IMG/VR virus record: IMGVR_UViG_2778261667_000017
Source of the DNA: a virus
Taxonomy: Duplodnaviria > Heunggongvirae > Uroviricota > Caudoviricetes
Reading direction: 5' to 3' (one strand)
DNA: 64,000 nucleotides
Part shown: one piece after another, positions 2,904 to 51,538 of the stretch
Position numbering within the stretch: the first letter of the stretch is position 1
Layout of the letters: the number at the start of each line of letters is the position of its first letter
The notes under the pieces: model-generated
The model's database searches: none
What the model was told of the DNA's origin: nothing
What the model saw: only the letters and a program-made list of their open reading frames with translations
Made by a program: the position numbers and the translations under genes

Positions 2904-2905
2904 TA

Positions 2906-7357: not shown

Positions 7358-7852
7358 ATGGCTGGAACGGCGGGGCGTTCCGGGCGTCGCCCCAAGCCAA
7401 CGGCGCGCAAGGCGCTGGCCGGAAACCCCGGCAAGCGAGCCCTGAATAAAGATGAACCTGTTTTTACGCCCATCAAAGGTGTTGAGCCACCGGAGTGGTT
7501 CGCTGAAGAAGATCTCCCTCTCGCTACGATCATGTGGCAACTGACAACTAAAGAACTCTGCGGTCAGGGCCTGCTGTGCGTGACTGACCTCGCGGTGCTT
7601 GAGCGGTGGTGCGTGGCCTACGAGTTCTGGCGACGTGCCGTGAAAAATATTGCCAGACAGGGCAACACCATCACCGGTGCAATGGGCGGTATGGTCAAAA
7701 ATCCGGAGCTGACCGCCAAAAAAGAACAGGAGTCCGAGATGAGCAGTACGGGGGCAATGCTCGGACTCGACCCCAGCAGCCGCCAGCGTCTGATTGGCCT
7801 GGCGGGGCAGAAGAAAGCCACTAACCCGTTTCTGAAAATCATCGAATCATGA
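7358..7852 (+). CDS. terminase small subunit (P27 family-like)
   Basis: AGGAG ribosome-binding site 8 nt before ATG 7358; overlaps the start of the large subunit. Confidence 0.75.
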
Positions 7853-14894: not shown

Positions 14895-15065
14895 ATGTTT
14901 GTCAAACCTGTTAAAGGGCGGTCAGTGCCTGACCCTGCCCGCGGTGACTTTTTGCCCGCCGAAGGGCGAAATGTTGACGAGAACAACTACTGGCTGCGCC
15001 GTGAAGCAGCGGGTGATATCCGGCGCGTGAATAAAAAGGTGAACACCGATGACGATAAGCTTTAA
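14895..15065 (+). CDS. small protein preceding the tail sheath (Mu-like module)
   Basis: 56 aa ORF MFVKPVKGRSV, not in the ORF track (below its size cut-off); overlaps the sheath start. Confidence 0.35.
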   Translation: MFVKPVKGRSVPDPARGDFLPAEGRNVDENNYWLRREAAGDIRRVNKKVNTDDDKL

Positions 15066-16545
15066 CACCATTCCGTCGAATACGCTGGTTCCGCTGTTTT
15101 ATGCGGAAATGGATAACCAGGCGGCGAATACTGCACAGGACAGCGGAGCATCGCTGCTGATTGGTCATGCCAATAACGGTGCAGAGATTGTTGCCAACAG
15201 TCTGGTGCTGATGCCGTCGGCAGACTATGCACGCCAGATTTGTGGTGCGGGAAGTCAGCTGGCGCGTATGGTCGAGGCTTATCGCCAGACCGACCTGTTT
15301 GGCGAGCTGTATGTGATTGCCGTTCCGGAAGCCACAGGCGCGGCGGCAACGGTTACGCTGACGGTGACCGGGGAAGCAACCGAAAGCGGCACGGTGAATG
15401 TCTATGTGGGACGTACCCGCGTGCAGGCTCCGGTGACCAACGGCGATAACGTCACGACGATTGCCAGCAGTATCCAGGATGCCATCAATGCCGTTCCGAC
15501 TCTGCCGTTTACAGCTTCATCTTCAGCTGGTGTTGTCACGCTGACCGCGCGTCATAAGGGGCTTTGCGGGAATGAAATTCCTGTCAGCCTCAATTACTAC
15601 GGCTTCGGTGGGGGCGAAGTGCTGCCAGCGGGCGTACAGATTGCCGTGGCGACGGGGACCGCCGGAACGGGCGCTCCGGTTCTCACCGGCGCGGTGGCTG
15701 CAATGGCGGATGAGCCGTTTGATTATATCGGCCTGCCGTTCAACGACACGGCCTCCGTTAACACGCTGGTGACTGAGATGAACGATACCAGCGGTCGCTG
15801 GAGCTATGCGCGTCAGCTGTATGGTCATGTGTATACGGCAAAGACCGGTACGCTGTCAGAACTGGTGACCGCAGGTGACCAGTTTAACCAGCAGCACATT
15901 ACCCTGGCGGGGTACGAAAAAGAGACCCAGACGCCTGCCGACGAACTGGCGGCAAGCCGTACCGCCCGCGCAGCGGTGTTTATTCGCAACGATCCGGCAC
16001 GTCCCACGCAGACCGGTGAGCTGGTGGGTATGCTGCCTGCGCCGAAGGGGAAACGGTTCACGATGACCGAACAACAGACCCTGCTGTCTCATGGCGTGGC
16101 AACGGCGTATGTCGAAAGCGGGGTACTGCGCATTCAGCGTGATGTCACCACGTACAGGAAAAACGCTTACGGGGTTGCGGATAACAGCTACCTAGACAGT
16201 GAGACTCTGCATACCAGCGCGTATGTACTGCGCAAACTGAAATCCGTCATTACCAGTAAGTACGGGCGTCACAAGCTTGCCAGTGACGGTACCCGCTTTG
16301 GTCCCGGTCAGGCAATTGTCACCCCGGCGGTGATCAAAGGGGAACTGCTGGCAACCTACCGTCAGCTTGAGCGTGCGGGGATCGTGGAAAACTACGAACT
16401 GTTTAAGCAGTACCTGGTTGTGGAGCGTGATGCCAGCGATCCGAACCGCCTGAACACGCTGTTCCCGCCTGACTATGTTAACCAGTTGCGTGTCTTTGCC
16501 GTGGTTAACCAGTTCCGTCTTCAGTATTCAGAGGAGTCTGCATAA
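15049..16545 (+). CDS. contractile tail sheath protein (Mu gpL-like)
   Basis: 498 aa; followed by tube, chaperone and tape measure. Confidence 0.8.
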   Translation: MTISFNTIPSNTLVPLFYAEMDNQAANTAQDSGASLLIGHANNGAEIVANSLVLMPSADYARQICGAGSQLARMVEAYRQTDLFGELYVIAVPEATGAAATVTLTVTGEATESGTVNVYVGRTRVQAPVTNGDNVTTIASSIQDAINAVPTLPFTASSSAGVVTLTARHKGLCGNEIPVSLNYYGFGGGEVLPAGVQIAVATGTAGTGAPVLTGAVAAMADEPFDYIGLPFNDTASVNTLVTEMNDTSGRWSYARQLYGHVYTAKTGTLSELVTAGDQFNQQHITLAGYEKETQTPADELAASRTARAAVFIRNDPARPTQTGELVGMLPAPKGKRFTMTEQQTLLSHGVATAYVESGVLRIQRDVTTYRKNAYGVADNSYLDSETLHTSAYVLRKLKSVITSKYGRHKLASDGTRFGPGQAIVTPAVIKGELLATYRQLERAGIVENYELFKQYLVVERDASDPNRLNTLFPPDYVNQLRVFAVVNQFRLQYSEESA

Positions 16546-16901
16546 TGGCCCGTATCGGGGGAACCTGTTATTTCAAAATTGACGGTCAGCAGCTATCGCT
16601 GGCCGGCGGCATTGAGGTGCCCATGAACAGGACGGTCAATGATGACATCATCGGCCTGGACGGTTCAGTGGACCGCAAGGAAACTCACCGTGCGCCTTAT
16701 GTCAAAGGGACCTTCAAGGTGCCGAAGAATTTTCCGGTGAGCAAAATCACCTCGTCTGATGAGATGACCATCACTGCCGAGCTGGCGAACGGTCAGGTCT
16801 ATGTACTGTCGTCTGCCTGGCTGCATGGCGAAGCGAACCATAATGCCGAAGAAGGCACGGTTGATCTTGAGTTCCACGGTGAAGAAGGGGATTACCAGTA
16901 A
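16545..16901 (+). CDS. tail tube protein
   Basis: 118 aa directly after the sheath. Confidence 0.7.
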   Translation: MARIGGTCYFKIDGQQLSLAGGIEVPMNRTVNDDIIGLDGSVDRKETHRAPYVKGTFKVPKNFPVSKITSSDEMTITAELANGQVYVLSSAWLHGEANHNAEEGTVDLEFHGEEGDYQ

Positions 16902-17170
16902 TGAAAGAGCTTGAGTTAAAGAAACCGATCACTGCTCATGGCGAGACACTCTCCGTACTGGAGTTTGATGAGCCCACCGGGAAAGATGTCCGCGAGCTGG
17001 GGTATCCCTACCAGATGAATCAGGATGAGTCCGTCAGACTTCTGGCGCATGTGGTGTCGAAATACATTGTGCGGCTGGCGAAAGTGCCGCAAAGCTCTGT
17101 CGACCAGATGTCTCCGGCAGACATGAATGCAGCGGCGTGGCTTGTGGCTGGTTTTTTCCTCCAGGCCTGA
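16901..17170 (+). CDS. tail assembly chaperone
   Basis: 89 aa before the tape measure; overlapped by a -1 frame ORF. Confidence 0.6.
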   Translation: MKELELKKPITAHGETLSVLEFDEPTGKDVRELGYPYQMNQDESVRLLAHVVSKYIVRLAKVPQSSVDQMSPADMNAAAWLVAGFFLQA

Positions 17171-17319
17171 CGGCTGAATACCTCACTGATCGCTTCTTTG
17201 ACTGCGCCAGCTACTGGCACATTAATCCCTTCGAATTGCTGAATATGCCGATCAGTGAAATTCCCTTACTGGTCAGTCAGGCAAACAGGATAGAGCAGGA
17301 GAAACGCACACATGGCTGA
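17137..17319 (+). CDS. tail assembly chaperone frameshift extension (-1 frame)
   Basis: ORF in the -1 frame overlapping the chaperone 3' end; slippery heptamer T_TTT_TTC at 17152..17158. Confidence 0.45.
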   Translation: MACGWFFPPGLTAEYLTDRFFDCASYWHINPFELLNMPISEIPLLVSQANRIEQEKRTHG

Positions 17320-19144
17320 ATTTGAGCTTAAGGCGTTGATCACCGGTGTCGACAGGCTTTCTCCCGCGCTGTCGAAAATGCAAAAGAAAATCCGGGGATT
17401 TAAACGCCAGGCGGAAGAAGCGTCACAGGGTGGGCTGGCGCTTGGTGGCGGACTGGCTGCGGGTCTGACGCTTTCCCTGAAATCTTATGCCGATCAGGAA
17501 AACGCCGCCACCGGGCTGAAAGTTGCCATGATGGATGCGAACGGTGAGGTCGGAAAGAGCTTTCAGGACATCAATAAACTGGCTATTGGTCTGGGTAACC
17601 AGCTACCCGGTACAACGGCTGATTTCCAGAACATGATGCAGATGCTGGTGCGTCAGGGGATCCCGGCAGAAAACATTCTGGGCGGTGTGGGTAAAGCGAC
17701 AGCTTATCTTGCGGTACAACTGAAAAAAACACCGGAAGCGGCTGCCGAGTTTGCCGCAAAGATGCAGGATGCTACCGGAACGGCGTCAGAAGACATGATG
17801 GGGCTGTTCGACACTATCCAGAAGGCGTTTTATCTGGGCGTTGACGATACCAACATGTTGTCCTTCTTCACTAAAACCAGCTCTGTTCTGAAGATGGTGA
17901 ACAAGGACGGTCTTCAGGCTGCACAGAGCCTTGCCCCCATCAGCGTCATGATGGATCAGATGGGGATGAACGGGGAATCGGCAGGTAACGCCCTGCGAAA
18001 AGTTATCCAGTCCGGATTAAGCGTTAAGAAAATCAGGGACGTCAATAAAATCATGGCCCGCCAGAAACTCGGGGTACAGCTCGATTTTACTGACGGCAAA
18101 GGGAGTTTTGGCGGTCTTGATAACATGTTCAGGCAACTGGCAAAGCTGCGAAAACTGACCGACGTTAAGCGAACAGGTGTACTTAAGGCAATATTTGGTG
18201 ATGATGCCGAAACCCTTCAGGTGGTCAATGCACTAATCGATAAAGGAAAGGATGGCTACGATCAGATCCAGCAGAAGATGAATAAACAGGCCAGCCTGAA
18301 TAAACGTGTGCAGGCACAGCTTGGTACGCTGTCCAACCTGTGGGAGGCAATGACAGGGACCGCAACTAACGGCCTTGCGGCTATTGGCGGCGCATTTTCT
18401 GGTGACGCTAAAAATATCACGCAATGGCTGGGGGAGTTGGGGGAGAAATTCACGAAGTTTGCGGATGAAAATCCCCGGGTTATTCGCGGCGTCGTCGGGC
18501 TTGCTGCCGGTCTTGCGATTCTGAAACTGGGATTGATGGGCGTTGGCGGTGCCATCAGTATTGTCAGCAGGATCATGTCGATGACGCCGATTGGCATGAT
18601 TGCGACGGCGATAGCCCTGGCTGCGGGATTAATTATCACTAACTGGGATGTTGTCGGACCTTATTTTAAGAAACTCTGGGAAACCATTGGTCCTTATTTT
18701 GAGGCTGGCTGGGAACTCCTTAAGAAAGTTTTTGCCTGGTCGCCGCTGGGGATGGTGATCAATAACTGGGGGCCGGTTGTTAAGTGGTTTCAGGATATGT
18801 GGGACAAGCTGAAGCCAATTATTGAGTGGTTTACCGACAGTTCCGGTGACACGGACGATGCCATTAACTCTGCGCAGTGGGGCGCGGGTGCTTATGATGC
18901 TTATGGGACGGGAATACCGGCGCGGGGATACACACCTTATCAGGCGGTAGATCCGGCTCAGTCAAACAACGCCTCCGATGCCACAGGCCCGAATCCCTTC
19001 ATGATCAACAAAGCTTCTGCGCCAAAAGTTGATGGTGAGATCAAGGTCTCTTTTGTGAATTCGCCTCCGGGTATGCGGGTTACGGAAACACGTTCCAGTG
19101 GCATTGATATTAATCACGATGTTGGGTACACCAGATTTAGGTAA
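17312..19144 (+). CDS. tail tape measure protein
   Basis: 610 aa; Gly/Ala-rich hydrophobic central region. Confidence 0.8.
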   Translation: MAEFELKALITGVDRLSPALSKMQKKIRGFKRQAEEASQGGLALGGGLAAGLTLSLKSYADQENAATGLKVAMMDANGEVGKSFQDINKLAIGLGNQLPGTTADFQNMMQMLVRQGIPAENILGGVGKATAYLAVQLKKTPEAAAEFAAKMQDATGTASEDMMGLFDTIQKAFYLGVDDTNMLSFFTKTSSVLKMVNKDGLQAAQSLAPISVMMDQMGMNGESAGNALRKVIQSGLSVKKIRDVNKIMARQKLGVQLDFTDGKGSFGGLDNMFRQLAKLRKLTDVKRTGVLKAIFGDDAETLQVVNALIDKGKDGYDQIQQKMNKQASLNKRVQAQLGTLSNLWEAMTGTATNGLAAIGGAFSGDAKNITQWLGELGEKFTKFADENPRVIRGVVGLAAGLAILKLGLMGVGGAISIVSRIMSMTPIGMIATAIALAAGLIITNWDVVGPYFKKLWETIGPYFEAGWELLKKVFAWSPLGMVINNWGPVVKWFQDMWDKLKPIIEWFTDSSGDTDDAINSAQWGAGAYDAYGTGIPARGYTPYQAVDPAQSNNASDATGPNPFMINKASAPKVDGEIKVSFVNSPPGMRVTETRSSGIDINHDVGYTRFR

Positions 19145-19176
19145 AGACGAACAGGGAGGGCCGCCCCTCCCTGAAC

Positions 19177-19623
19177 TTACTGTGCGAACACGCAATTTCG
19201 GCCTGATGGGGAGCCGACAATTCTGGACATTTTTTCGCAAATAATAGTTACCTGTTCTCCTTTTTTAAGAGCAGCAGCTGTTGATTTTTCAGAGTCTTGC
19301 ATCTCCATTCTTGCTGGCATGAATTCATTTTCAGTTCTGAATTTAATAATTATAGAGTCAGTAAAGTCCTTATCAATGGATTGTACGATACCTCTAACGG
19401 CGATTAATTTACCTTTTAACTGTTCATCGGTAGCGACTTCATTTTCTTCATACTCTTTAAACAGCTGTCGAGCAGTAGTGTTGTAGATTTCTTTTTGCGG
19501 TGCCGCAGCTTCCGTATCGGATGAGTATGAAGAATTAGAGCCTTTATCGTTATTGCCTGCAAAATATCCAATAATCACCAACCCGATGAAAATATATAAA
19601 ATCCATTTTAATAATTTCTTCAT
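19177..19623 (-). CDS. exported or membrane-anchored OB-fold-like protein (resembles the tRNA_anti-like family, from memory)
   Basis: 148 aa; N-terminal hydrophobic anchor LLKWILYIFIGLVIIGYFAG; AT-rich; sole reverse-strand gene inside the tail module. Confidence 0.55.
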   Translation of the reverse strand: MKKLLKWILYIFIGLVIIGYFAGNNDKGSNSSYSSDTEAAAPQKEIYNTTARQLFKEYEENEVATDEQLKGKLIAVRGIVQSIDKDFTDSIIIKFRTENEFMPARMEMQDSEKSTAAALKKGEQVTIICEKMSRIVGSPSGRNCVFAQ

Positions 19624-19733
19624 GTTATCACCTTAATGCTAATAATTTATATGGTTACAAATGGTAATGGCTACCACTACAAATTATGGCATTACCAGTA
19701 AATATTACTACTGATAATAAATATGGGAGTTAT

Positions 19734-21062
19734 ATGACGTGGAAAGACAGACTTCAGGACGCGTCATTTCGCGGTGTGTCGTTTAAGGTTGAAGAAGAAA
19801 GTGCGGGAACCGGCCGTCGTGTGGAAACACACGAATACCCGAACCGCGACAAACCCTATACCGAAGACCTGGGGAAAATCACTTTCCGCCCGTCCATCAC
19901 GGCTTATGTGGTGGGAGATGACTGCTTTGACCAGCGCGATCGCCTGATTGACGCGCTGAATAAACCCGGTCCCGGCACGCTTGTCCATCCGACATACGGT
20001 GAACTGAAAGTCTGTGTTGACGGGGAAGTTCGGGTCAGCACATCGAAAAGTGAAGGACGTATTGTCCGCTTTGACCTGAAGTTTGTCGAAGCAGGAGAGC
20101 TCTCTTACCCCACATCAGGTGCGGCGACGGCGCAGACGCTGATGTCATCCTGTTCTGCACTGGATGACTGCATCAGTGACAGCTTCAGCGGTTTCAGTAT
20201 CGATGGCGTGGCGGATTTTGTGCAGAACGACGTCGTTGGTAATGTCAGCACAATGCTTGGGTATGTTTCTGATGCGATGAAAGTGGTGGATTCTGCCGTA
20301 TCGGATGCGGCCAGGCTGTTGCAGGGGGATATCTCGGTACTTCTGCCGCCACCATCGTCAGGCAAAAATTTCGTTGAGCAGGTGCAGAAAATGTGGCGTA
20401 CCGGGAAACGCCTTTATGGTAACGCCAGCGACCTGGTCACCATGATCAAAACGCTTTCCGGTGTCAGCCTCGGCAGCGATCTGCAACCGCGCGGCGTCTG
20501 GAAAACGGACAGTAAAACCACCGCCACGGCTACGCAGCAGCGTAACGTGGTTGCCAGCACCCTTCGTACGACCGCAATCAGCGAAGCGGCGTATGCCGTC
20601 ACCCGATTGCCTGCGCCAACAACTTCCTCGGTGATGCAGAATGCCGCAGTGGGGCAGGCAACAACACCTGCGCAGAGCACTGGCTGGCCTTCCGTCACGC
20701 ATCCGGCACTGAACAATGCACCGGCGGTGAAAAACACAGTTGACCTGCCGACGTGGGAAGAACTGACTGACATTCGCGACACACTGAATACGGCAATTGA
20801 TAAGGAGTTGTCCCGTACAACCAGTGATGCGCTGTTTCTGGCGCTGCGCCGGGTGAAAGCAGATCTGAATGCGGATATCAACACGCGCCTTGAACAGTCT
20901 GCACGGATCATTCAGCGCACGCCGGATGAGGTTTTACCCGCGTTGGTGCTGGCGGCGACCTGGTTTGATAACGCGGCGCGTGACGCGGACATTATCCGGC
21001 GTAATGCCATTACGCATCCCGGCTTTGTGCCGGTGATCCCTCTGAAGGTGCCAGTGCAATGA
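19734..21062 (+). CDS. DNA circularisation protein (Mu gpN-like)
   Basis: Follows the tape measure; start chosen at MTWKDRLQ after a GGGAG ribosome-binding site. Confidence 0.7.
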   Translation: MTWKDRLQDASFRGVSFKVEEESAGTGRRVETHEYPNRDKPYTEDLGKITFRPSITAYVVGDDCFDQRDRLIDALNKPGPGTLVHPTYGELKVCVDGEVRVSTSKSEGRIVRFDLKFVEAGELSYPTSGAATAQTLMSSCSALDDCISDSFSGFSIDGVADFVQNDVVGNVSTMLGYVSDAMKVVDSAVSDAARLLQGDISVLLPPPSSGKNFVEQVQKMWRTGKRLYGNASDLVTMIKTLSGVSLGSDLQPRGVWKTDSKTTATATQQRNVVASTLRTTAISEAAYAVTRLPAPTTSSVMQNAAVGQATTPAQSTGWPSVTHPALNNAPAVKNTVDLPTWEELTDIRDTLNTAIDKELSRTTSDALFLALRRVKADLNADINTRLEQSARIIQRTPDEVLPALVLAATWFDNAARDADIIRRNAITHPGFVPVIPLKVPVQ

Positions 21063-22138
21063 ACGATAACGTCACGCTACGGGTAAATGGCCGGGAGTGG
21101 AATGGCTGGACATCGGTGCGCATCGGTGCCGGTGTTGAACGACTGGCGCGGGATTTCAGTGTGGAGATCACCCGCCAGTGGCCGGGAGATGAGGGGATCA
21201 CCACGCTTCAGCCGCGCATTAAAAACGGTTCAAAAGTGGAAGTGCTGATTGGTGATGAGCTGGTGATCACCGGCTGGGTGGAGGCGACGCCCGTTCGTTA
21301 CGATGCCCGTTCGGTCAGCACCGGTATTGCCGGACGCAGTCTGACCGCTGATCTGATTGACTGTGCAGCCGAACCGACACAGTTTAACGGACGATCGCTG
21401 GTACAGATTGCGCAGGCGCTTGCTGCGCCCTTCGGCATTGAGGTGGTGAACAACGGTGCGCCGTCGGGTGTTATTCCTGACGTCCAGCCTGATCACGGTG
21501 AAACGGTGATTGAGGTAATCAACAAAATACTCGGTCAGCAGCAGGCACTGGCTTACGACGACCCGCACGGCAGGCTGGTGATTGGCGGTATTGGCTCAAC
21601 GCGGGCACATACTGCACTGGTACTTGGGGAAAACATCCTTTCCTGCGATACGGAGAAGAGTATCCGGGAGCGGTTTTCTGTTTACCAGGTGGCGGGGCAG
21701 CGTGCCGGAAACGACGATGATTTCGGTGAGGCCACCACCACCGCGCTGCGGGCCCGCACAGAGGACGCATTTATTGCCCGTTACCGTCCGATGTATATCA
21801 GGCAGACAGGGCAGGCCACGGGGGCAGGCTGTATTGCGCGTGCTGACTTTGAAGCCCGGCAACGGGCGGCGCGGACGGATGAAACCACCTATGTGGTGCA
21901 GGGCTGGCGACAGGGTAACGGTACGCTGTGGCAGCCCAACCAGCGGGTGATTGTCTTCGATCCGGTCTGTGGTTTTGACAATACCGAACTGCTTGTCTCG
22001 GAAGTCACGTTTACTCAGGACCAGAATGGCACCCTGACGGAAATCCGTGTCGGCCCGCCTGATGCTTATCTGCCTGAACCCGAAGACCCCGGCGCGCGGA
22101 AAAAGAAAAAAGCCAGAGTACAGGAGGACCCGTTCTGA
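21059..22138 (+). CDS. baseplate hub protein (Mu gpP-like)
   Basis: 359 aa, overlapping start. Confidence 0.7.
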   Translation: MNDNVTLRVNGREWNGWTSVRIGAGVERLARDFSVEITRQWPGDEGITTLQPRIKNGSKVEVLIGDELVITGWVEATPVRYDARSVSTGIAGRSLTADLIDCAAEPTQFNGRSLVQIAQALAAPFGIEVVNNGAPSGVIPDVQPDHGETVIEVINKILGQQQALAYDDPHGRLVIGGIGSTRAHTALVLGENILSCDTEKSIRERFSVYQVAGQRAGNDDDFGEATTTALRARTEDAFIARYRPMYIRQTGQATGAGCIARADFEARQRAARTDETTYVVQGWRQGNGTLWQPNQRVIVFDPVCGFDNTELLVSEVTFTQDQNGTLTEIRVGPPDAYLPEPEDPGARKKKKARVQEDPF

Positions 22139-22686
22139 TGAGGACGATTGAAGCCATGCAGCGACAACTCCTCGGCCTGATTGGGCGGGCCGTGGTGAAA
22201 AGCATCAGTGCCGCCACGAAATGTCAGACCGTGGATGTGTCCCTGATTGCCGGTGAACCCAAAGCCGGGATTGAACATCTTGAACCCTACGGTTTTACCG
22301 CAAGGGCAAACAGCGGTGCGGAAGCGGTGGTGTTGTTTCCGGATGGCGACCGTTCTCATGCGGTGGTTGTTACGGTGTCGGACCGGCGCTACCGCCTGAA
22401 AGGGCTGCAGACGGGTGAGGTGGCTGTCTATGACGATCAGGGGCAGTCCGTGACGCTGACCCGGGAGGGGATCGTGGTGGACGGTGCAGGTAAAACGATC
22501 ACGTTTCGCAATGCACCTGAAGCACGTTTTGAAATGGACCTGGAAGTGACAGGACAGGTGAAAGACCTGTGCGACTCCGGCGGCACCACCATGTCAGCGA
22601 TGCGGCTTGCCTATAACGGCCATCGTCACAGAGAGAACGGTCAGGGCAGTAACACCGATAAACCTGATAAAGCGATGGAGGCATGA
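22138..22686 (+). CDS. baseplate assembly / spike protein (Mu gp45-like)
   Basis: 182 aa. Confidence 0.65.
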   Translation: MRTIEAMQRQLLGLIGRAVVKSISAATKCQTVDVSLIAGEPKAGIEHLEPYGFTARANSGAEAVVLFPDGDRSHAVVVTVSDRRYRLKGLQTGEVAVYDDQGQSVTLTREGIVVDGAGKTITFRNAPEARFEMDLEVTGQVKDLCDSGGTTMSAMRLAYNGHRHRENGQGSNTDKPDKAMEA

Positions 22687-23111
22687 TGGAACTGTGGCTG
22701 ACGGTGAACGGTAAACGCACCTGCGCCAGCGCACCGCTGGATCCGCTGACCCGCGCCGTGGTGATTTCCCTGTTCACCTGGCGGCGGGCGGAGCCTGATG
22801 ACAACGCCGACGTCCCGATGGGATGGTGGGGGGATTCCTGGCCTGCGGTACAGAATGACCGTTACGGTTCTCGACTGTGGCTGCTTCAGCGCAGCAAACT
22901 GACCAATCAGCTGGTACAGACGGTAAGGGGATATATCCGCGAATGCCTGCAATGGATGATTGATGATGGCGTGGTGTCCCGTATTGATCTGGATATCCGT
23001 CGCACCGGGATTAATGAGCTGGGTAACAGTATCACCCTCTGGCGTCGTGACGGACCGGTAATGATTTCTTTTGATGATCTGTGGAGTGCGATAACGCATG
23101 GCGGACAGTGA
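22683..23111 (+). CDS. baseplate protein (Mu gp46-like)
   Basis: 142 aa. Confidence 0.6.
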   Translation: MMELWLTVNGKRTCASAPLDPLTRAVVISLFTWRRAEPDDNADVPMGWWGDSWPAVQNDRYGSRLWLLQRSKLTNQLVQTVRGYIRECLQWMIDDGVVSRIDLDIRRTGINELGNSITLWRRDGPVMISFDDLWSAITHGGQ

Positions 23112-24156
23112 ATTTCAGCGCCCGACGCTGGCAGAAAATATCAGTATGCTCCGTAACGATTTATTCGCCAGGCTGGACGTCAGCGACACGCTCCGGCGCA
23201 TGGATGAAGACGTGCGGGCAAAGGTGTATGCGGCGGCGCTGCATACGGTTTACGGGTACATCGATTATCTGGCAATGAACATGCTGCCTGACCTGTGCGA
23301 TGAGTTCTGGCTGGCGCGACATGCTGCGATGAAACGGTGTCCGCGCAAGGGTGCCACAGCTGCCAGCGGGTATATGCGCTGGGAAGGCGTCAGCGATGGC
23401 CTGAAGGTGACCGCCGGGAGTGTTATTCAGCGCGATGACCTGGTTCAGTACACGGCAACTGCCGATGCAACCAGCTCCGGTGGTGTCCTGCGCCTGCCGA
23501 TCGCCTGTTCAACTGCAGGCGCGGTCGGTAACGCTGACGACGGTACGGCATTAATCCTGGTCACGCCGGTGAATGGTCTGCCGTCTTCCGGTGTGGCTGA
23601 CACCCTGACAGGCGGATTTGATACTGAAGAGCTGGAAACGTGGCGCGCCCGCGTCATTGAGCGGTATTACTGGACGCCGCAGGGCGGGGCTGACGGGGAC
23701 TATGTTGTCTGGGCTAAAGAAGTGCCCGGCATTACCCGCGCATGGACATACCGTCACTGGATGGGAACGGGAACTGTCGGTGTGATGATTGCCAGCAGTG
23801 ACCTGATTAATCCCATTCCGGAAGAATCAACGGAAACGGCAGCAAGACAACATATCGGGCCACTGGCCCCGGTGGCAGGCTCTGATTTGTATGTATTCAG
23901 GCCGGTGGCGCATAAAGTGGATTTTCATATCCGCGTGACGCCGGACACACCAGAAATACGGGCTGCCATTACCGCGGAGTTGCGTTCGTTCCTGCTGCGT
24001 GATGGTTATCCGCAGGGAGAGCTGAAGGTGTCGCGTATCAGTGAAGCGATTTCCGGTGCGAACGGGGAATACAGCCATCAGTTGCTTGCACCGGCAGACA
24101 ATATCTCCATTGCGAAAAACGAACTGGCGGTTCTGGGGACGATTTCATGGACGTGA
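23098..24156 (+). CDS. baseplate J-like protein (Mu gp47-like)
   Basis: 352 aa. Confidence 0.75.
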
Positions 24157-24731
24157 CAAACGATGATTACATCCGTCTGTTGTCAGCACTGTTGCCGCCC
24201 GGTCCGGCGTGGTCAGCCAGCGATCCGGCGATTGCCGGTGCAGCACCGTCATTAACCCGTGTTCATCAGCGTGCGGATGCCCTGATGCGGGAGCTGGATC
24301 CGCGCACCACCACCGAACTGATAAACCGCTGGGAGCGTCTGTGCGGCCTGCCGGATGAATGTATTCCCGCAGGGACACAGACCCTTCGCCAGCGTCAGCA
24401 ACGGCTGGATGCGAAGGTTAACCTGGCGGGCGGCATCAACGAGGATTTTTATCTTGCACAGCTTGCTGCCCTGGGCAGACCAGATGCCACCATCACGCGA
24501 TACGACAAAAGCACCTTCACCTGCTCATCGGCCTGTACTGACGCGGTGAATGCGCCGGAATGGCGGTATTACTGGCAGGTCAACATGCCAGCTGCCACCA
24601 ACACCACCTGGATGACATGTGGTGATCCCTGTGATTCCGCACTGCGTATCTGGGGCGACACCGTTGTCGAGTGTGTGCTTAACAAACTCTGCCCTTCGCA
24701 TACCTACGTAATTTTTAAATATCCGGAGTAA
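24147..24731 (+). CDS. tail protein (Mu gp48-like)
   Basis: 194 aa. Confidence 0.6.
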
Positions 24732-24734
24732 TCC

Positions 24735-25397
24735 ATGCATCGTATAGACACGAAAACCGCGCAGAAGGATAAGTTCGGCGCGGGTAAGAGCGGTTTTACC
24801 CGTGGTAACCCCCAGACCGGCACACCTGCCACCGATCTGGATGATGACTACTTTGACATGTTGCAGGAAGAACTCTGCAGCGTGGTGGAGGCATCCGGTG
24901 TCAGCCTGGAGAAGGGGCGGCATGACCAGCTGCTTACCGCGCTTCGTGCGCTGCTGTTAAGCCGCAAGAATCCGTTTGGCGATATCAAATCGGATGGCAC
25001 GGTGAAAACGGCTCTCGAAAACCTTGGTTTGGGAGAAGCGGCAAAACGGGATGTGGGGACAGGGGAAAATCAGATACCGGACATGGCCTCTTTTGCCAGT
25101 GGTGATGGATGGATGAAATTACCCAACGGGAAAATCCTGCAATATGGTCGTGGTGCGGTTACGCCGACATTATCGACGCAAACAATGAGAATTACATTCA
25201 GCATCCCTTTCCCCAAAAAAGCGGACTGCGCCATGCTTACTCATTCTGGTGATGGCGGTGCGCCTTTAGGCGCTGGGCGAGGGTTCGTGATGACTGCAGA
25301 AGGCCCAACGTTAACCGGCTTTAATTCTGCTTACAGAACGTCATCAACCAGCGACACGGTATCGATGAATTACAGTTGGTGGGCTGTTGGTGAGTAA
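24735..25397 (+). CDS. tail fibre protein, constant N-terminus fused to the currently expressed variable C-terminus
   Basis: 220 aa; crosses the left inversion site at the GLGE codons. Confidence 0.75.
25014..25038. repeat. left inversion site (gix/pix-like)
   Basis: ctcgaaaaccttggtttgggagaag; the 13 bp ggtttgggagaag recurs inverted at 26903..26915. Confidence 0.65.
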
Positions 25398-25408
25398 TTT
25401 TATTCAGG

Positions 25409-25861
25409 GTGATTTATATGAACGAATATGTTTATAGCGCAAGGCATAATGCTTTTTTCCCTGTGGATATGATTGATAAATATAAATCAGAGGGATGGGA
25501 TTTATCAGACGCTAAGGAAGTAAATCAAAATATTATCAGTGAGTTTATGGCTGAACCGCCACAAGGAAAAATCCGTATTGCCGGAGATGATGGGCTGCCT
25601 GCGTGGGCAGATATTCCTCCACCCACGCATGAAGAGCTTATTGAAATTACTGAATCAGAAAGACAGCTACTAATTAACCAGGCCAACGAATACATGAACA
25701 GTAAGCAATGGCCCGGTAAAGCCGCTATTGGTCGTCTGAAAGGTGAGGAACTGGCGCAATATAATTTGTGGCTGGATTATCTGGATGCACTGGAGCTGGT
25801 TGATACCTCCAGTGCGCCAGATATTGAATGGCCTACGCCTCCGGCAGTTCAGGCCAGATAA
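25409..25861 (+). CDS. tail fibre assembly protein (expressed orientation)
   Basis: Ends ...SSAPDIEWPTPPAV, the conserved tail-fibre-assembly C-terminus. Confidence 0.7.
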   Translation: MIYMNEYVYSARHNAFFPVDMIDKYKSEGWDLSDAKEVNQNIISEFMAEPPQGKIRIAGDDGLPAWADIPPPTHEELIEITESERQLLINQANEYMNSKQWPGKAAIGRLKGEELAQYNLWLDYLDALELVDTSSAPDIEWPTPPAVQAR

Positions 25862-26435
25862 CATCCGGCGCGGTGCTGGTATCTGTTGCCGTCACCGCGT
25901 CAATGTAATCCAGCACAGCGTTAAGTCTGGTTGTTTCTGCCTGCGTCAGTTTACGTCCGGCCTGCAATTTCAGTTGAATCAGACTGATGGAAGCCATTGC
26001 TGCATCAATCAGTGACTGGCGCTGTGCTTCTGCCGCTTCTACTGCGGCACCGTGTTGTGCCTCAGTATCTGTCACCCATTTTTCACCATCCCATTTATCG
26101 TATGGCGTTAACGGGGCGATAGTGGTTGTATTTTCGGGATAGTCGCCTAGTGCTGTGATTCCTTTGGCATCTCCCGTTTCGGTGTTATAGACGATTTCAC
26201 CGCGATGGTCTGACACATATTCCCATGATTTTAAATCCACAGAACGGCAAATTGTATAACCAGCCTTAGATGTACCAGGAGCGTCTAAACAGGAATATGC
26301 TGGAATACCGACACCCACTGCAAGATATTCAGTTGATGCAGAAATATATTCCCGCGTCTCACCATCATAGTTATAGACGGTAATATTCCCCGCCTTCGTG
26401 GTAATAAGCTCGCTATTTAATACGGCGTTATCCAT
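25833..26435 (-). CDS. tail fibre assembly protein (alternative, silent orientation)
   Basis: Ends ...TSTAPDVIWPELPEA; convergent with the other assembly gene. Confidence 0.7.
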   Translation of the reverse strand: MDNAVLNSELITTKAGNITVYNYDGETREYISASTEYLAVGVGIPAYSCLDAPGTSKAGYTICRSVDLKSWEYVSDHRGEIVYNTETGDAKGITALGDYPENTTTIAPLTPYDKWDGEKWVTDTEAQHGAAVEAAEAQRQSLIDAAMASISLIQLKLQAGRKLTQAETTRLNAVLDYIDAVTATDTSTAPDVIWPELPEA

Positions 26436-26915
26436 TATGCAGCCCTCACGATATAGTTAAATGCAATATTTCGTGGACGGGTTTCACTCCCGCCAGTATT
26501 ACCGATACTCCCTCGTGAATGAAGTGTCGGTGATGGGATCAGAGTTCCGCCTGCACTGGTAGCATCCAGCCCCTTGCCCTGTGTATATGTATTTCGGAAG
26601 ATTGTTGCCAGCTCCCATTCCTCTTTTGAATCATGCCCATCGTTAGCTACAACAAAATGACGGTGCTTTTCCAGCATTCCGGCCTGAATACTCAATAAAA
26701 CACGTCCTGCATCAATACCGCGCCCGTCATCCCAGCCACGAATAAACTCACCGCGTAAATCAGGTAATTTATTTGTTGGATAAGCCTTTGCCAGTTCCGG
26801 GTATTCTTCAGCAGAAAATGCCGCACCGTTGCATTTCAGCCAGCCTGTTGGCGGTGTGACTGAAGACCATGGAACAGGCACACCAACAGGTAATGCAGAG
26901 CCTTCTCCCAAACCA
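26435..26915 (-). CDS. alternative tail-fibre C-terminal cassette (promoterless; fused to the constant region after inversion)
   Basis: Reading frame continues through the right inversion site with GLGEG matching GLGEA of the expressed fibre. Confidence 0.6.
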
Positions 26916-26927
26916 ACGTTTATGAAA
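26903..26927. repeat. right inversion site (gix/pix-like)
   Basis: cttctcccaaacc is the reverse complement of the left-site core; lies just upstream of the invertase gene. Confidence 0.65.
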
Positions 26928-26982
26928 ATGCAGAAATAACGAGCAAATGGCATCATTCCTGCTTTTGTCAGGGGGATCTACC

Positions 26983-27537
26983 ATGCTTATTGGCTATGTA
27001 CGCGTATCAACAAATGACCAGAACACAGATCTACAACGTAATGCGCTGAACTGTGCAGGATGCGAGCTGATTTTTGAAGACAAGATAAGCGGTACAAAGT
27101 CCGAAAGGCCGGGACTGAAAAAACTGCTCAGGACATTATCGGCAGGTGACACGCTGGTGGTCTGGAAACTGGACCGGCTGGGGCGCAGTATGCGGCATCT
27201 TGTCGTGCTGGTGGAGGAGTTGCGCGAACGAGGCATCAACTTTCGTAGTCTGACGGATTCAATTGATACCAGTACCCCAATGGGGCGCTTTTTCTTTCAT
27301 GTGATGGGTGCCCTGGCTGAAATGGAGCGTGAACTGATTGTTGAAAGAACAAAAGCTGGACTGGAAGCTGCTCGCGCACAGGGACGAATTGGTGGACGTC
27401 GTCCCAAACTTACACCAGAACAATGGGAACAGGCCGGACGATTAATTGCATCAGGAGTTCCTCGCCAGAAGGTGGCGATTATCTATGATGTTGGTGTGTC
27501 AACTTTGTATAAGAGGTTTCCTGCAGGGGATAAATAA
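26983..27537 (+). CDS. pin: DNA invertase, serine recombinase (Pin/Gin/Hin family)
   Basis: MLIGYVRVSTNDQNTDLQRNAL...; start at the internal Met after the inversion site. Confidence 0.9.
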   Translation: MLIGYVRVSTNDQNTDLQRNALNCAGCELIFEDKISGTKSERPGLKKLLRTLSAGDTLVVWKLDRLGRSMRHLVVLVEELRERGINFRSLTDSIDTSTPMGRFFFHVMGALAEMERELIVERTKAGLEAARAQGRIGGRRPKLTPEQWEQAGRLIASGVPRQKVAIIYDVGVSTLYKRFPAGDK

Positions 27538-27643: not shown

Positions 27644-28477
27644 ATGCATGTTTTTGATAATAATGGAATTGAACTGAAAGCTGAGTGTTCGATAGGTGAA
27701 GAGGATGGTGTTTATGGTCTAATCCTTGAGTCGTGGGGGCCGGGTGACAGAAACAAAGATTACAATATCGCTCTTGATTATATCATTGAACGGTTGGTTG
27801 ATTCTGGTGTATCCCAAGTCGTAGTATATCTGGCGTCATCATCAGTCAGAAAACATATGCATTCTTTGGATGAAAGAAAAATCCATCCTGGTGAATATTT
27901 TACTTTGATTGGTAATAGCCCCCGCGAGATACGCTTGAAGATGTGTGGTTATCAGGCTTATTTTAGTCGTACGGGGAGAAAGGAAATTCCTTCCGGCAAT
28001 AGAACGAAACGAATATTGATAAATGTTCCAGGTATTTATAGTGACAGTTTTTGGGCGTCTATAATACGTGGAGAACTATCAGAGCTTTCACAGCCTACAG
28101 ATGATGAATCGCTTCTGAATATGAGGGTTAGTAAATTAATTAAGAAAACGTTGGGTCAACCCGAGGGCTCCAGGAAACCAGTTGAGGTAGAAAGACTACA
28201 AAAAGTTTATGTCCGAGACCCGATGGTAAAAGCTTGGATTTTACAGCAAAGTAAAGGTATATGTGAAAACTGTGGTAAAAATGCTCCGTTTTATTTAAAT
28301 GATGGAAACCCATATTTGGAAGTGCATCATGTAATTCCCCTGTCTTCAGGTGGTGCTGATACAACAGATAACTGTGTTGCCCTTTGTCCGAATTGTCATA
28401 GAGAATTGCACTATAGTAAAAATGCAAAAGAACTAATCGAGATGCTTTACGTTAATATAAACCGATTACAGAAATAA
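27644..28477 (+). CDS. mcrA: McrA-like HNH nuclease (type IV modification-dependent restriction)
   Basis: 277 aa; C-terminal HNH motif CENCG...HHVIPLSSGG...CPNCH; same position after pin as mcrA in K-12 e14 (from memory). Confidence 0.75.
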   Translation: MHVFDNNGIELKAECSIGEEDGVYGLILESWGPGDRNKDYNIALDYIIERLVDSGVSQVVVYLASSSVRKHMHSLDERKIHPGEYFTLIGNSPREIRLKMCGYQAYFSRTGRKEIPSGNRTKRILINVPGIYSDSFWASIIRGELSELSQPTDDESLLNMRVSKLIKKTLGQPEGSRKPVEVERLQKVYVRDPMVKAWILQQSKGICENCGKNAPFYLNDGNPYLEVHHVIPLSSGGADTTDNCVALCPNCHRELHYSKNAKELIEMLYVNINRLQK

Positions 28478-28988: not shown

Positions 28989-30131
28989 CTATGCTGTTTT
29001 GATATCTACGATAATCCAGTCTTTACCACGATCATCATTGTATCGGTCGGTCATTTTTCTGGATTTATGACCTAACAACTTTTGCGTATCCAGACCCTGT
29101 TCCCGATATAACCGTTCTGACAGAGATCGCTGCTCATGAAATGTGGGCGCAGTTCCTTGCTCCCATTTTATGCCACATTTTTCCCTGGCCTTTTTAAAAG
29201 CCGTTGTAAGAGTATTTGCAGACACCTGGTCTCCTCTGTTTGCTTGAGAGGTAGTGTGACGGTAATGGACCAGATATTTACTAACAACAGCATCCCTGCA
29301 CTGAGATATAACTTCACGAAGGGTAATATTCAGAGCATCGCATTTCAGGTTAAGCGGAATAGCAAGTTTTGAACCGGTTTTTTCCTGAGTAATGTGCAAC
29401 ATGTCGTCCCAGATATCAGAGAATTTCAAATTGCAGATATCGCCTAAACGTTGTCCAGTGACAAGAGCAAGTAGCATCCCGCATTTTAAATAGGGCTGCC
29501 GTCTGCTTACGCTGTCAAATATTGCCTGCCATTCGGGCAGTGATAATCTTTGGCGGTTTACTCGATTTCGCGGTTGTTTTGTTGCCTGCGCTGGGTTAAA
29601 TCCTGGCGGAACATGTCCGGCGTGTTGTGCTTCTTTGAAGACGTCGATCAACACCATTCTCACGACTTGCGCCATCCTGTTATGACCTTCAGCCTTTACA
29701 GCATCAATTATTTCGGCAATATCAAGTGCGGTAATATCCTTGAGGTGTTGCATTCCACAATGCTCACGGAAAAGACGAATGGGTTTGCCTTTTTGCCGAT
29801 AGGAGTTGGGTCTTAGTTCATTATGTTGCAGCCTGTCCTCCTGGATAGAAATATATTTATCAAGCCATTCTGTCACCGTAATGTCTGAGCGCCTGCCTTT
29901 CATTCTTTCCAGACGCTCATTGACGCTTAATATTTGTCGGGTACGTTGTTCAGCAATAATGGTATTTGCTTCAGTAGCAACTTGTTTTGCTTCATTCTCA
30001 TCAGTTCCTAAGCTATGAAAACGACCGGATAGTGGATGTTTGTATTGCCAATATACCTTTCCGGTTCGCTTATCTAATTTGCAATATAAATTGGGTATAG
30101 AGATTTTGTGAGATCGGGGGCTAGCAGCCAT
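28989..30131 (-). CDS. int: tyrosine integrase
   Basis: 380 aa; C-terminal catalytic region with ...HEQRSLSERLYREQG...LLGHKSRKMTDRY. Confidence 0.9.
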   Translation of the reverse strand: MAASPRSHKISIPNLYCKLDKRTGKVYWQYKHPLSGRFHSLGTDENEAKQVATEANTIIAEQRTRQILSVNERLERMKGRRSDITVTEWLDKYISIQEDRLQHNELRPNSYRQKGKPIRLFREHCGMQHLKDITALDIAEIIDAVKAEGHNRMAQVVRMVLIDVFKEAQHAGHVPPGFNPAQATKQPRNRVNRQRLSLPEWQAIFDSVSRRQPYLKCGMLLALVTGQRLGDICNLKFSDIWDDMLHITQEKTGSKLAIPLNLKCDALNITLREVISQCRDAVVSKYLVHYRHTTSQANRGDQVSANTLTTAFKKAREKCGIKWEQGTAPTFHEQRSLSERLYREQGLDTQKLLGHKSRKMTDRYNDDRGKDWIIVDIKTA

Positions 30132-31584: not shown

Positions 31585-31745
31585 ACCGCCTCCCGTTTAT
31601 TATTTATCTTCTCAGCCAGCCGCTGTGCTTTCAGTGGATTTCTGATAACAGAAAGGCCGGGAAATACCCAGCCTCGCTTTGTAACGGAGTAGACGAAAGT
31701 GATCGCGCCTACCCGGATATTATCGTGAGGATGCGTCATCGCCAT
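31557..31745 (-). CDS. hypothetical protein (lambda orf60a-like position)
   Basis: 62 aa, overlaps the exo start. Confidence 0.4.

Positions 31746-47857: not shown

Positions 47858-51538
<3,681 letters not shown>

What the first reader, a model, noticed from the sequence alone, without database searches (positions are those of the whole stretch)
19177..19623. Reverse-strand exported OB-fold-like protein embedded between the tape measure and baseplate genes
This is the only minus-strand gene within about 20 kb of co-directional structural genes. It is AT-rich and has an N-terminal hydrophobic anchor or signal. The C-terminal domain (GKLIAVRGIVQSIDKDFTDSIIIKFRTENEF...KGEQVTIICEKMSRIVG) resembles, from memory, the tRNA_anti-like OB-fold family of secreted or membrane proteins. 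An envelope-located protein expressed from a prophage tail module is a plausible superinfection-exclusion or lysogenic-conversion factor.
Basis: partly seen in the sequence, partly recalled or inferred. Interest (0 to 1): 0.45.

Follow-up and report, generated by a model that had tools for sequence, protein, structure and literature searches.

The report
Prophage moron encoding membrane-anchored OB-fold protein
A small extra gene inserted backwards into the tail genes of a dormant E. coli virus encodes a membrane-tethered protein facing the periplasm. It probably protects the host cell against other viruses, but it belongs to a catalogued family whose function has never been tested.

Summary
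The ORF at 19177-19623(-) is real. It is 37% GC against 56% in its flanks, and it is the only minus-strand gene in about 19 kb of late genes of an SfV-like E. coli prophage.

It is a classic moron:
- A 589-bp spacer sits where SfV, SfI and SfII have 60 bp.
- It has its own intrinsic terminator and a conserved extended -10.
- About 1093 E. coli genomes carry this tail junction, but only about 79 carry the moron. Some of those copies have a 145-bp deletion or an IS1 truncation.

The protein is not a lipoprotein. It is predicted to be an N-in/C-out signal-anchored inner-membrane protein with a flexible tether and an acidic periplasmic OB domain carrying two invariant cysteines.

In 16 of 27 divergent phage lineages, the homologue lies just downstream of the repressor gene on the same strand. 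This argues for expression in the lysogen.

Superinfection exclusion is the best-supported function, but it is inferred. No characterised homologue was found. The case is ordinary and of modest interest.

The parts
19145..19720 (-). Moron cassette: AT-rich insert filling the spacer between the tape-measure stop codon and the ribosome-binding site of the DNA-circulation gene
   Evidence: SfII, SfV and SfI have a 60-bp spacer here, against 589 bp in the window. GC is 37% against 56% in the flanks. The empty site is the majority state in E. coli.
19683..19691 (-). Putative extended -10 promoter element TGcCATAAT. The -35 is weak. The resulting 5' UTR would be roughly 55 nt.
   Evidence: Found by pattern search. 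TGCYATAAW is the only upstream block conserved in the divergent alleles L026 and L029. It was not picked up by the consensus scan because the -35 is poor. This is inferred, not shown.
19628..19634 (-). Shine-Dalgarno sequence AAGGTGA, 4 nt upstream of the ATG
   Evidence: Read directly from the sequence. Conserved as AGGTGAT in alleles L026 and L029.
19177..19623 (-). CDS, 148 aa, PF12869 / phrog_8545 protein (RefSeq WP_000734912.1, 'OB-fold protein')
19558..19614 (-). Codons 4-22: transmembrane signal anchor LLKWILYIFIGLVIIGYFA
   Evidence: Mean Kyte-Doolittle hydropathy 2.16. N-flank +3, C-flank -2. AF2 predicts a helix over residues 2-22. There is no lipobox Cys.
19492..19557 (-). Codons 23-44: Ser/Asn/Asp-rich disordered tether
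   Evidence: pLDDT is below 50 for residues 24-35. This is the fastest-evolving segment, with pN 0.30-0.52, and its length varies among homologues.
19180..19491 (-). Codons 45-148: OB-fold domain, acidic (pI 5.2), with invariant Cys129 (19237-19239) and Cys144 (19192-19194)
19152..19173 (-). Intrinsic terminator of the moron: 9-bp GC-rich stem, 4-nt loop, then UUCGUCUUUA
   Evidence: Consensus scan. Perfect inverted repeat. Folding energy -20.4 kcal/mol, z=-3.4. Read on the + strand there is no U-tract, so it is not expected to stop late transcription (inference).
17312..19144 (+). Flanking gene: tail tape-measure protein
19734..21062 (+). Flanking gene: DNA-circulation protein (Mu gp43/N-like). 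The conserved start is ATGACGTGG at 19734.

Best explanation
This is a horizontally acquired moron in an SfV-like (HK97-type head, Mu-type contractile tail) E. coli prophage.

Transcription. It is an independent unit that runs antisense to the late operon. It has its own extended -10 promoter, a Shine-Dalgarno sequence and an intrinsic terminator. It can therefore be expressed while the tail genes are silent in the lysogen (inferred). During lytic growth it would probably be damped by converging late transcription (inferred).

Protein. The product is a 148-aa bitopic inner-membrane protein with these parts:
- a short basic cytoplasmic N-terminus;
- one uncleaved signal-anchor helix;
- a flexible tether of about 22 residues;
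- an acidic 104-residue PF12869 OB-fold domain held at the periplasmic face of the inner membrane, probably stabilised by a Cys129-Cys144 disulfide (predicted).

Function. The most likely function is superinfection exclusion. The tethered OB domain would bind a protein component of an incoming phage's genome-delivery machinery, such as the tape-measure or ejection proteins, or the inner-membrane conduit they use. This would block DNA entry after adsorption. It would act in the manner of HK97 gp15, TP-J34 Ltp or the lactococcal Sie2009-type proteins without being related to them (inferred).

Approximate confidence by step:
- moron and accessory status: 0.95
- extracytoplasmic membrane-anchored OB domain: 0.85
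- expression in the lysogen: 0.7
- superinfection exclusion as the function: 0.4-0.45
For: Identity:
- PF12869 at E=1.7e-19.
- phrog_8545, 'superinfection exclusion Sie-like', at E=2.2e-49 over the full length.
- AF2 model with pLDDT 87.9.

Moron status:
- Absent from SfV, SfI and SfII, where the spacer is 60 bp.
- 1093 of 5426 E. coli genomes have this junction, but only about 79 carry the insert.
- Other, unrelated cargo genes occupy the same site.
- GC is 37% against 56%.
- It has its own terminator.
- An extended -10 is conserved across alleles that are otherwise dissimilar upstream.
- Allele L029 is only 71% identical and saturated at synonymous sites, yet sits inside a tail that is 94-97% identical. 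This means cassette replacement.

Topology:
- Positive-inside charge distribution and a 19-residue hydrophobic helix.
- Two invariant cysteines in the OB domain.
- Homologues carry cytoplasmic-type N-terminal modules (Zn-ribbon, DnaJ, GYF) before the TM helix, or a lipobox (LISGC) in its place.

Expression in the lysogen:
- In 16 of 27 lineages (clusters at 80% identity) from IMG/VR, a CI/HTH repressor-like gene lies within two genes upstream on the same strand, often 13-27 bp away. The same is true of only 4.8% of other ORFs in those loci.
- Burkholderia phage Carl1 has the order immunity repressor, membrane protein, OB gene, terminator.
- Some homologues sit next to Gabija-like defence genes.

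Precedents for envelope-tethered exclusion proteins encoded as morons or in lysogeny modules:
- HK97 gp15, encoded next to the tape-measure gene (PMC3594210).
Against: - There is no experimental evidence for any PF12869 protein in phage exclusion (literature searches).
- The PHROG label is of unknown provenance.
- No named or characterised homologue exists in 50,697 phage records.
- PADLOC gives no hit.
- Homologues at 52-61% identity also occur in ordinary-looking chromosomal neighbourhoods (CopD/SRAP/EptA, MCP, TrpA) in Pantoea, Erwinia, Kalamiella and Dryocola. The family may therefore have a cellular envelope role unrelated to phages.
- About a quarter of the roughly 79 E. coli copies are not full length (59 are). 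Damaged forms include a 145-bp deletion of the promoter and TM helix and an IS1 truncation. Selection for the gene is therefore not universal.
- The promoter has a weak -35 and failed the consensus scan.
- Topology and the disulfide are predictions. No signal-peptide or topology predictor was available, and no model coordinates could be inspected.
Confidence: 0.45

Rival explanations
1. It is a lysogenic-conversion factor that benefits the host envelope in a way unrelated to phage entry. Examples would be tolerance to antimicrobial peptides, colicins or tailocins, or oxidative or envelope stress, or a role in host colonisation. It would act like other small periplasmic OB-fold proteins (the BOF family YgiW/YdeI, from my own knowledge) or like morons such as lambda Bor and Lom.
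For: - The moron anatomy and repressor-operon contexts predict expression in the lysogen but do not say what the protein does.
- Non-prophage chromosomal homologues exist in Erwiniaceae, which suggests a cellular function that phages captured.
- The acidic domain (pI 5.2) fits protein or glycan binding in general.
- PMC3594210 lists many morons whose roles are not anti-phage.
Against: - The only functional label attached to the family is Sie-like.
- Some homologues neighbour defence genes.
- There is no Pfam match to the BOF family PF04076 at E<=10.
Confidence: 0.3
2. It is an abortive-infection protein of the AbiP/PdpSau type. A membrane-anchored protein with a cytoplasmic OB-like domain would bind phage nucleic acid and trigger membrane damage or a replication arrest.
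For: AbiP and PdpSau combine an N-terminal TM helix with an OB-like nucleic-acid-binding region, and PdpSau is prophage-encoded (PMC10127798). PF12869 is nominally a nucleic-acid-binding OB family, and the TcdC OB domain matches it (PMC3575817).
Against: - The charge distribution predicts N-in/C-out.
- The two invariant cysteines, together with the lipobox and the cytoplasmic-module-TM-OB variants, place the domain outside the cytoplasm.
- The domain is acidic rather than basic.
- PADLOC gives no Abi match.
Confidence: 0.05
3. It is a structural or assembly component of the tail, or a regulator of tail gene expression, which would explain its position between the tape-measure and baseplate genes.
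For: Only its position. One distant homologue (L047) also lies inside a myovirus tail module.
Against: - It is absent from the viable phages SfV, SfI and SfII and from more than 90% of E. coli prophages with the same tail.
- It is on the opposite strand, has foreign GC content and has its own terminator.
- Most homologues are outside tail modules.
- Decaying copies exist.
Confidence: 0.02
4. It is a selectively neutral hitch-hiker or a decaying remnant with no current function in this prophage.
For: Copies with a deletion of the promoter and TM helix, or truncated by IS1, occur in some genomes.
Against: - The window copy is intact with all its expression signals.
- There is strong purifying selection on the OB domain across alleles: pN 0.11-0.21 against pS of about 0.8.
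- 59 genomes keep a copy that covers at least 80% of the query.
Confidence: 0.08

Closest known systems
Pfam PF12869 (tRNA_anti-like); solved member 3F1Z, 'putative nucleic acid-binding lipoprotein' of Klebsiella pneumoniae
   Same: - The HMM match is well above threshold and covers the anchor, linker and OB domain.
- Both are exported, envelope-tethered OB domains.
   Different: - Only about 17% identity, with no sequence-level PDB hit even when searching with a profile.
- 3F1Z is a lipoprotein, whereas this protein has a TM signal anchor and no lipobox.
- No function is known for either. Nucleic-acid binding is nominal, and this domain is acidic.
HK97 gp15 moron (superinfection exclusion; PMC3594210)
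   Same: - A moron inserted in the tail operon next to the tape-measure gene.
- Own promoter and terminator, and deviant GC.
- A small inner-membrane protein.
- Chromosomal homologues exist (YebO for gp15; the Erwiniaceae genes here).
   Different: - No sequence or fold relationship was detected, since the Pfam scan returned only PF12869. Direct comparison with gp15 was not run.
- The insertion site is on the other side of the tape-measure gene.
- Exclusion is demonstrated for gp15 and only inferred here.
Ltp of Streptococcus thermophilus phage TP-J34 (PF07553, host cell surface-exposed lipoprotein; PMC3952083)
   Same: - Encoded by a temperate phage and transcribed in the prophage state.
- Tethered to the outer face of the cytoplasmic membrane.
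[quoted passage not shown] This is the mechanistic model proposed here.
- Homologues of the present gene likewise sit in lysogeny modules.
   Different: - Ltp has a lipid anchor rather than a TM helix.
- The fold is different and there is no PF07553 match.
- Ltp comes from a Gram-positive host.
- A viral protein named 'host cell surface-exposed lipoprotein' matched the OB model in BFVD (rank 4). This possible fusion was not verified.
Lactococcal Sie2009-type and P22 SieA exclusion proteins (my own knowledge; PMC10883804 for SieA)
   Same: Small prophage-expressed cytoplasmic-membrane proteins that block DNA entry. Sie2009-type genes lie next to the repressor gene, as do many homologues here.
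   Different: No homology was detected. The matches to phrog_15667 and phrog_4980 ('superinfection exclusion') are weak, and the stronger of the two covers only residues 1-48, the TM/linker region.
AbiP (Lactococcus) and PdpSau (S. aureus prophage) (PMC10127798)
   Same: An N-terminal membrane anchor plus an OB-like domain with an anti-phage role. PdpSau is a prophage accessory gene.
   Different: Their OB-like region is cytoplasmic, basic and nucleic-acid-binding, and they act by abortive infection. Here the domain is predicted to be periplasmic and acidic.
CcmE haem chaperone
   Different: It is a topological analogue only, with no sequence relationship and no CcmE family match in the Pfam scan.

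Membership tests
Pfam PF12869 tRNA_anti-like (OB-fold clan) | HMM score above the curated gathering threshold | tested here: met
   70.2 bits against a 23.5 cut-off, E=1.7e-19. Residues 2-130 match profile positions 5-131 of 146.
Pfam PF12869 tRNA_anti-like (OB-fold clan) | Five-stranded OB beta-barrel fold | tested here: met
Pfam PF12869 tRNA_anti-like (OB-fold clan) | Nucleic-acid binding (the nominal family function) | not testable with these tools
   The domain has pI 5.2 (15 K+R against 17 D+E) and a predicted periplasmic location, which makes nucleic-acid binding doubtful.
Moron (Juhala/Hendrix sense; PMC3594210) | Present or absent between otherwise collinear phage genomes | tested here: met
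   SfV, SfI and SfII lack it. The flanks are 97-98% identical. The empty site is the majority state in E. coli.
Moron (Juhala/Hendrix sense; PMC3594210) | Base composition different from the neighbouring genes | tested here: met
   37% against 56% GC
Moron (Juhala/Hendrix sense; PMC3594210) | Own terminator | tested here: met
   9-bp GC stem followed by a U-rich tail, -20.4 kcal/mol, z=-3.4. The analogous hairpin is kept in alleles L026 and L029 with a different sequence.
Moron (Juhala/Hendrix sense; PMC3594210) | Own promoter | tested here: inconclusive
   An extended -10 (TGcCATAAT) is conserved across alleles, but the -35 is weak and the consensus scan gave no hit.
Moron (Juhala/Hendrix sense; PMC3594210) | Expression from the repressed prophage | not testable with these tools
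   Supported only indirectly, by the antisense orientation and by homologues lying in repressor operons.
Superinfection-exclusion proteins (functional class; phrog_8545 'Sie-like') | Profile match to the PHROG carrying the label | tested here: met
   E=2.2e-49 over residues 1-146. The basis of the label is unknown.
Superinfection-exclusion proteins (functional class; phrog_8545 'Sie-like') | Homology to an experimentally characterised Sie protein | tested here: not met
   No named homologue in 50,697 phage records, even at E<=5. Pfam gives only PF12869. No literature was found.
Superinfection-exclusion proteins (functional class; phrog_8545 'Sie-like') | Blocks phage DNA entry without blocking adsorption | not testable with these tools
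   This requires phage challenge and injection assays.
Bacterial lipoproteins (RefSeq names some homologues 'OB-fold putative lipoprotein') | Lipobox with an invariant Cys at the end of the signal peptide | tested here: not met
   The only cysteines are at positions 129 and 144. One homologue, P0067, does have a lipobox (LISGC).
AbiP/PdpSau-type membrane-anchored OB-like Abi proteins | Cytoplasmic, basic, nucleic-acid-binding C-terminal domain | tested here: not met
   The predicted topology is N-in/C-out, the domain is acidic, and it carries an invariant Cys pair. This is prediction only.
Known anti-phage defence systems (PADLOC-DB 2.0) | Match to any defence-system HMM | tested here: not met
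   0 families at E<=10

The most novel reading that the evidence does not exclude
PF12869 membrane-tethered periplasmic OB-fold proteins could be a large, so far uncharacterised class of prophage superinfection-exclusion proteins in Proteobacteria. They would typically be co-transcribed with the phage repressor, or carried as stand-alone morons as here. They would block genome entry by binding incoming tape-measure or ejection proteins, or their inner-membrane conduit, from the periplasmic side. Phages would have recruited them from a cellular envelope protein family.
Probability: 0.35. Interest if true: 0.55.

Novelty: new member of a known kind. Interest (0 to 1): 0.3.

Why it matters
If the exclusion function is real, this family would be an easily recognised marker of prophage-conferred phage resistance in E. 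coli and many other Proteobacteria. A profile of its OB domain matches 6707 cluster representatives at 50% identity. That is relevant to choosing phages for therapy and to understanding competition between prophages.

The family would also add an OB-fold solution to the short list of mechanistically understood blocks to DNA entry in Gram-negative bacteria.

The tape-measure/DNA-circulation junction of SfV-like prophages turns out to be a polymorphic cargo site with at least four alternative small genes. It is a convenient natural test bed for moron function.

As it stands, the finding is a correct annotation of an already catalogued gene rather than a discovery.

Tried and rejected
- NCBIfam and PADLOC scans gave nothing useful.
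- A sequence search of the PDB with a family profile found nothing at E<=1, so the link to 3F1Z rests on fold comparison alone.
- tblastn against all phage records, including at E<=5, found only unannotated hypothetical proteins.
- Five literature searches for PF12869, tRNA_anti-like, Sie-like, OB-fold plus exclusion, and the RefSeq accession found no functional study.
- A strong sigma-70-like match inside the ORF (19376-19349, 11 of 12 positions) was rejected. Its -10 is not conserved in other alleles, and it simply encodes IDKDFTDSIII.
- An 8-bp inverted repeat brackets the putative -10. It is not conserved in the alleles shown, so it was not taken as an operator.
- I looked for a conserved partner gene next to the OB gene and found none. 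Neighbours differ by lineage.
- I looked for informative domain fusions. Only cytoplasmic-type N-terminal modules and tandem OB repeats turned up. The BFVD hit named 'host cell surface-exposed lipoprotein' could not be followed up.
- The + strand ORFs overlapping the region (19098-19244 and 19319-19486) are short shadows without support.

Full report
OBSERVATION

It lies in a 589-bp spacer between two genes:
- the stop codon of a 610-aa tape-measure gene (17312-19144, +);
- the conserved start of a Mu gp43/N-like DNA-circulation gene. That start is ATGACGTGG at 19734. The ORF start at 19686 is 16 codons too long.

The spacer is 37% GC against 56% for the surrounding late genes. Between about 6.8 and 25.9 kb every credible gene is on the + strand except this one. 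The other minus-strand ORFs are shadows inside + strand genes. RefSeq annotation of a 99.8% identical E. coli locus shows the same picture and calls the gene 'OB-fold protein', WP_000734912.1.

It is a real gene. More than 90 homologues were found. Between alleles the OB domain has pN of 0.11-0.21 while synonymous sites are saturated at pS of about 0.8.

WHAT IT IS

- Pfam PF12869 (tRNA_anti-like) matches residues 2-130 with 70.2 bits against a cut-off of 23.5, E=1.7e-19.
- PHROG 8545, annotated 'superinfection exclusion Sie-like' in the moron category, matches the full length at E=2.2e-49.
- NCBIfam and PADLOC give nothing.

TOPOLOGY (predicted)

- Residues 4-22 are a 19-residue hydrophobic helix with mean Kyte-Doolittle hydropathy of 2.16. 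The N-flank MKKLLK carries +3 and the following 15 residues carry -2, which points to N-in/C-out.
- There is no cysteine before residue 129, so it is not a lipoprotein.
- No small-x-small signal-peptidase site follows the helix (read by eye). An uncleaved signal anchor is therefore more likely than a cleaved signal peptide.
- Cys129 and Cys144 are invariant in all 26 aligned homologues, as expected for a periplasmic disulfide.
- Relatives replace the short N-terminus with cytoplasmic-type modules (zinc ribbon, DnaJ, GYF) ahead of the TM helix, or replace the helix with a lipobox (LISGC in P0067). All of these put the OB domain outside the cytoplasm.
- The domain is acidic (pI 5.2), which argues against the nominal nucleic-acid-binding role.

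IT IS A MORON, NOT A TAIL COMPONENT

The host element is an SfV/SfI/SfII-like prophage. Its flanks are 97-98% identical to those phages, which have only a 60-bp spacer here, with a + strand terminator annotated in SfII.

Among 5426 complete E. coli genomes, the numbers are as follows:
- 1093 carry this tail junction.
- 79 match the moron-specific query, and 59 of them cover at least 80% of it.
- Most have the empty site.

Other genomes carry unrelated + strand cargo genes of unknown function at the same site. These are 170 aa (phage SKA5, phrog_8976), 176 aa (phrog_5485) and 225 aa (phrog_1353).

Some copies are damaged. One variant has a 145-bp deletion that removes the promoter, RBS and TM helix (loci L021-L025; also hit H46). 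Another is truncated by IS1.

Divergent alleles at 71-72% protein identity occupy the same site. One is in a tail that is about 70% identical (L026). Another is in a tail that is 94-97% identical (L029). Because synonymous sites are saturated, the L029 allele must have arrived by cassette replacement rather than by divergence in place.

The cassette has its own expression signals:
- a Shine-Dalgarno sequence, AAGGTGA at 19634-19628;
- an intrinsic terminator at 19173-19152, with a 9-bp GC stem, -20.4 kcal/mol and z=-3.4;
- an upstream TGcCATAAT extended -10 at 19691-19683. This is the only upstream block shared with the divergent alleles. Its -35 is weak, and the consensus scan missed it.

CONTEXT OF RELATIVES

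In IMG/VR, 58 loci outside the 99%-identical group fall into 27 clusters at 80% OB identity. In 16 of these clusters a CI/HTH repressor-like gene lies within two genes upstream on the same strand, often only 13-27 bp away. Only 4.8% of the other ORFs in the same loci show this arrangement.

- The cultured Burkholderia phage Carl1 (P2-like) has immunity repressor, membrane protein, OB gene and terminator in one operon beside gene D.
- Other relatives sit inside a different myovirus tail module (L047), or next to Gabija-like AAA_15/OLD-TOPRIM plus UvrD genes (L059, L070).
- No conserved partner gene exists.

The repressor-operon position is the classical place for lysogen-expressed exclusion genes. 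That is established knowledge for lambda rexAB and the lactococcal sie genes, and PMC3952083 shows it for ltp.

The picture is not purely phage-associated. In one-genome-per-species data the subfamily spans Enterobacterales, Xanthomonadales, Betaproteobacteria, an alphaproteobacterium and Myxococcota. Several homologues at 52-61% identity, in Pantoea, Kalamiella, Erwinia and Dryocola, lie in ordinary chromosomal neighbourhoods next to CopD/SRAP/EptA, chemoreceptor genes or trpA. This echoes the relationship between HK97 gp15 and YebO (PMC3594210).

A profile of the OB domain matches 6707 representatives of 50%-identity clusters at E<=1e-3. Many are multi-domain or carry tandem OB repeats.

MECHANISM

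Shown:
- accessory moron status;
- family and fold;
- purifying selection;
- association of homologues with repressor operons.

Predicted:
- type II membrane topology, flexible tether and periplasmic disulfide-bonded OB domain;
- an independent promoter.

Inferred:
- expression in the lysogen;
- function as a block to the periplasmic or inner-membrane step of genome delivery by incoming phages.

The inferred function follows these precedents: HK97 gp15, encoded next to the tape-measure gene and dependent on the incoming tail (PMC3594210); Ltp, tethered outside the membrane with the tape-measure protein as target (PMC3952083); SieA (PMC10883804); and, conceptually, SNIPE acting at the injection site (PMC13190303).

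I put the full chain at about 0.45. The main rival, at 0.3, is an envelope fitness or lysogenic-conversion role unrelated to phage entry, which the chromosomal homologues make credible. An AbiP/PdpSau-like abortive mechanism (PMC10127798) is unlikely given the predicted topology and the acidic domain. A structural role is effectively refuted.

NOVELTY AND VERDICT

The gene is already annotated in RefSeq, belongs to a Pfam family with a solved structure, and sits in a PHROG already labelled Sie-like. I found no experimental work on it.

It is a new member of a known kind, namely a moron-encoded envelope protein. Interest is modest at 0.3. The attraction is that a widespread, easily assayed family may be an uncharacterised exclusion mechanism.

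Noticed in passing
window 1-28500 and 28989-64000: The window holds two tandem prophages. The first is the late region of an SfV/e14-like myovirus (terminase 7849-9582, Mu-type tail 15049-25861). The second is a lambdoid prophage that opens with a lambda-type integrase at 28989-30131(-). It also has a YqaJ exonuclease at 31736-32416(-), a large terminase at 47832-49757, a tape-measure gene at 57672-60251 and lambda-like tail-tip genes at 60.5-62.6 kb.
   Followed up: partly
window 25833-27537: A likely invertible tail-fibre segment. Tail-fibre assembly genes lie on the minus strand (25833-26435, Caudo_TAP; 26435-26956), next to a Gin/Pin-type serine invertase (26947-27537, Resolvase plus HTH_7). 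An HNH-domain protein follows at 27644-28477.
   Followed up: partly
window 1689-4081 (-): A low-GC (34-35%) gene pair lies upstream of the late genes. One is a 404-aa protein with no Pfam match. The other is a 391-aa protein matching PF04245 (NA37, nucleoid-associated protein-like). It looks like another accessory or defence-type insertion.
   Followed up: partly
L002:1727-2239, L087:692-1222, L086:691-1368 (the site equivalent to window 19145-19733): The tape-measure/DNA-circulation junction of SfV-like E. coli prophages is a polymorphic cargo site. Besides the empty state and the OB moron, it can hold + strand genes of 170 aa (phrog_8976, with a signal-peptide-like N-terminus), 176 aa (phrog_5485) or 225 aa (phrog_1353). 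None has a Pfam match or a known function.
   Followed up: partly
window 19662-19669 / 19690-19697: A perfect 8-bp inverted repeat, TGGTAATG/CATTACCA, with 20 nt between the arms, brackets the putative -10 of the OB gene. It could be an operator, but it is not conserved in the divergent alleles L026 and L029.
   Followed up: partly
L021-L025 (IMG/VR) and hit H46; L088:1479-1811: Decaying copies of the moron. One form has a 145-bp deletion that removes the promoter, RBS and first ~24 codons. Another is a copy truncated by IS1A and annotated as a 110-aa 'OB-fold putative lipoprotein'.
   Followed up: yes
L059:2212-3726, L070:6483-10081: Distant OB homologues in IMG/VR prophage contigs lie convergent to AAA_15/OLD-TOPRIM ATPase genes. 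In L070 a UvrD-type helicase gene follows, giving a Gabija-like pair. The OB gene therefore sometimes sits in prophage defence islands.
   Followed up: partly
L091, L093, L096, L097, L110: Homologues at 52-61% identity in Pantoea, Kalamiella, Erwinia and Dryocola lie beside ordinary chromosomal genes (CopD, SRAP, EptA, chemoreceptors, TrpA). This suggests a cellular origin or a cellular role for the family.
   Followed up: partly
window 19686-19733: The longest ORF for the DNA-circulation gene starts 16 codons upstream of the conserved start at 19734. The extra codons lie inside the moron's promoter region and are absent from SfII, SKA5 and the RefSeq annotation.
   Followed up: yes
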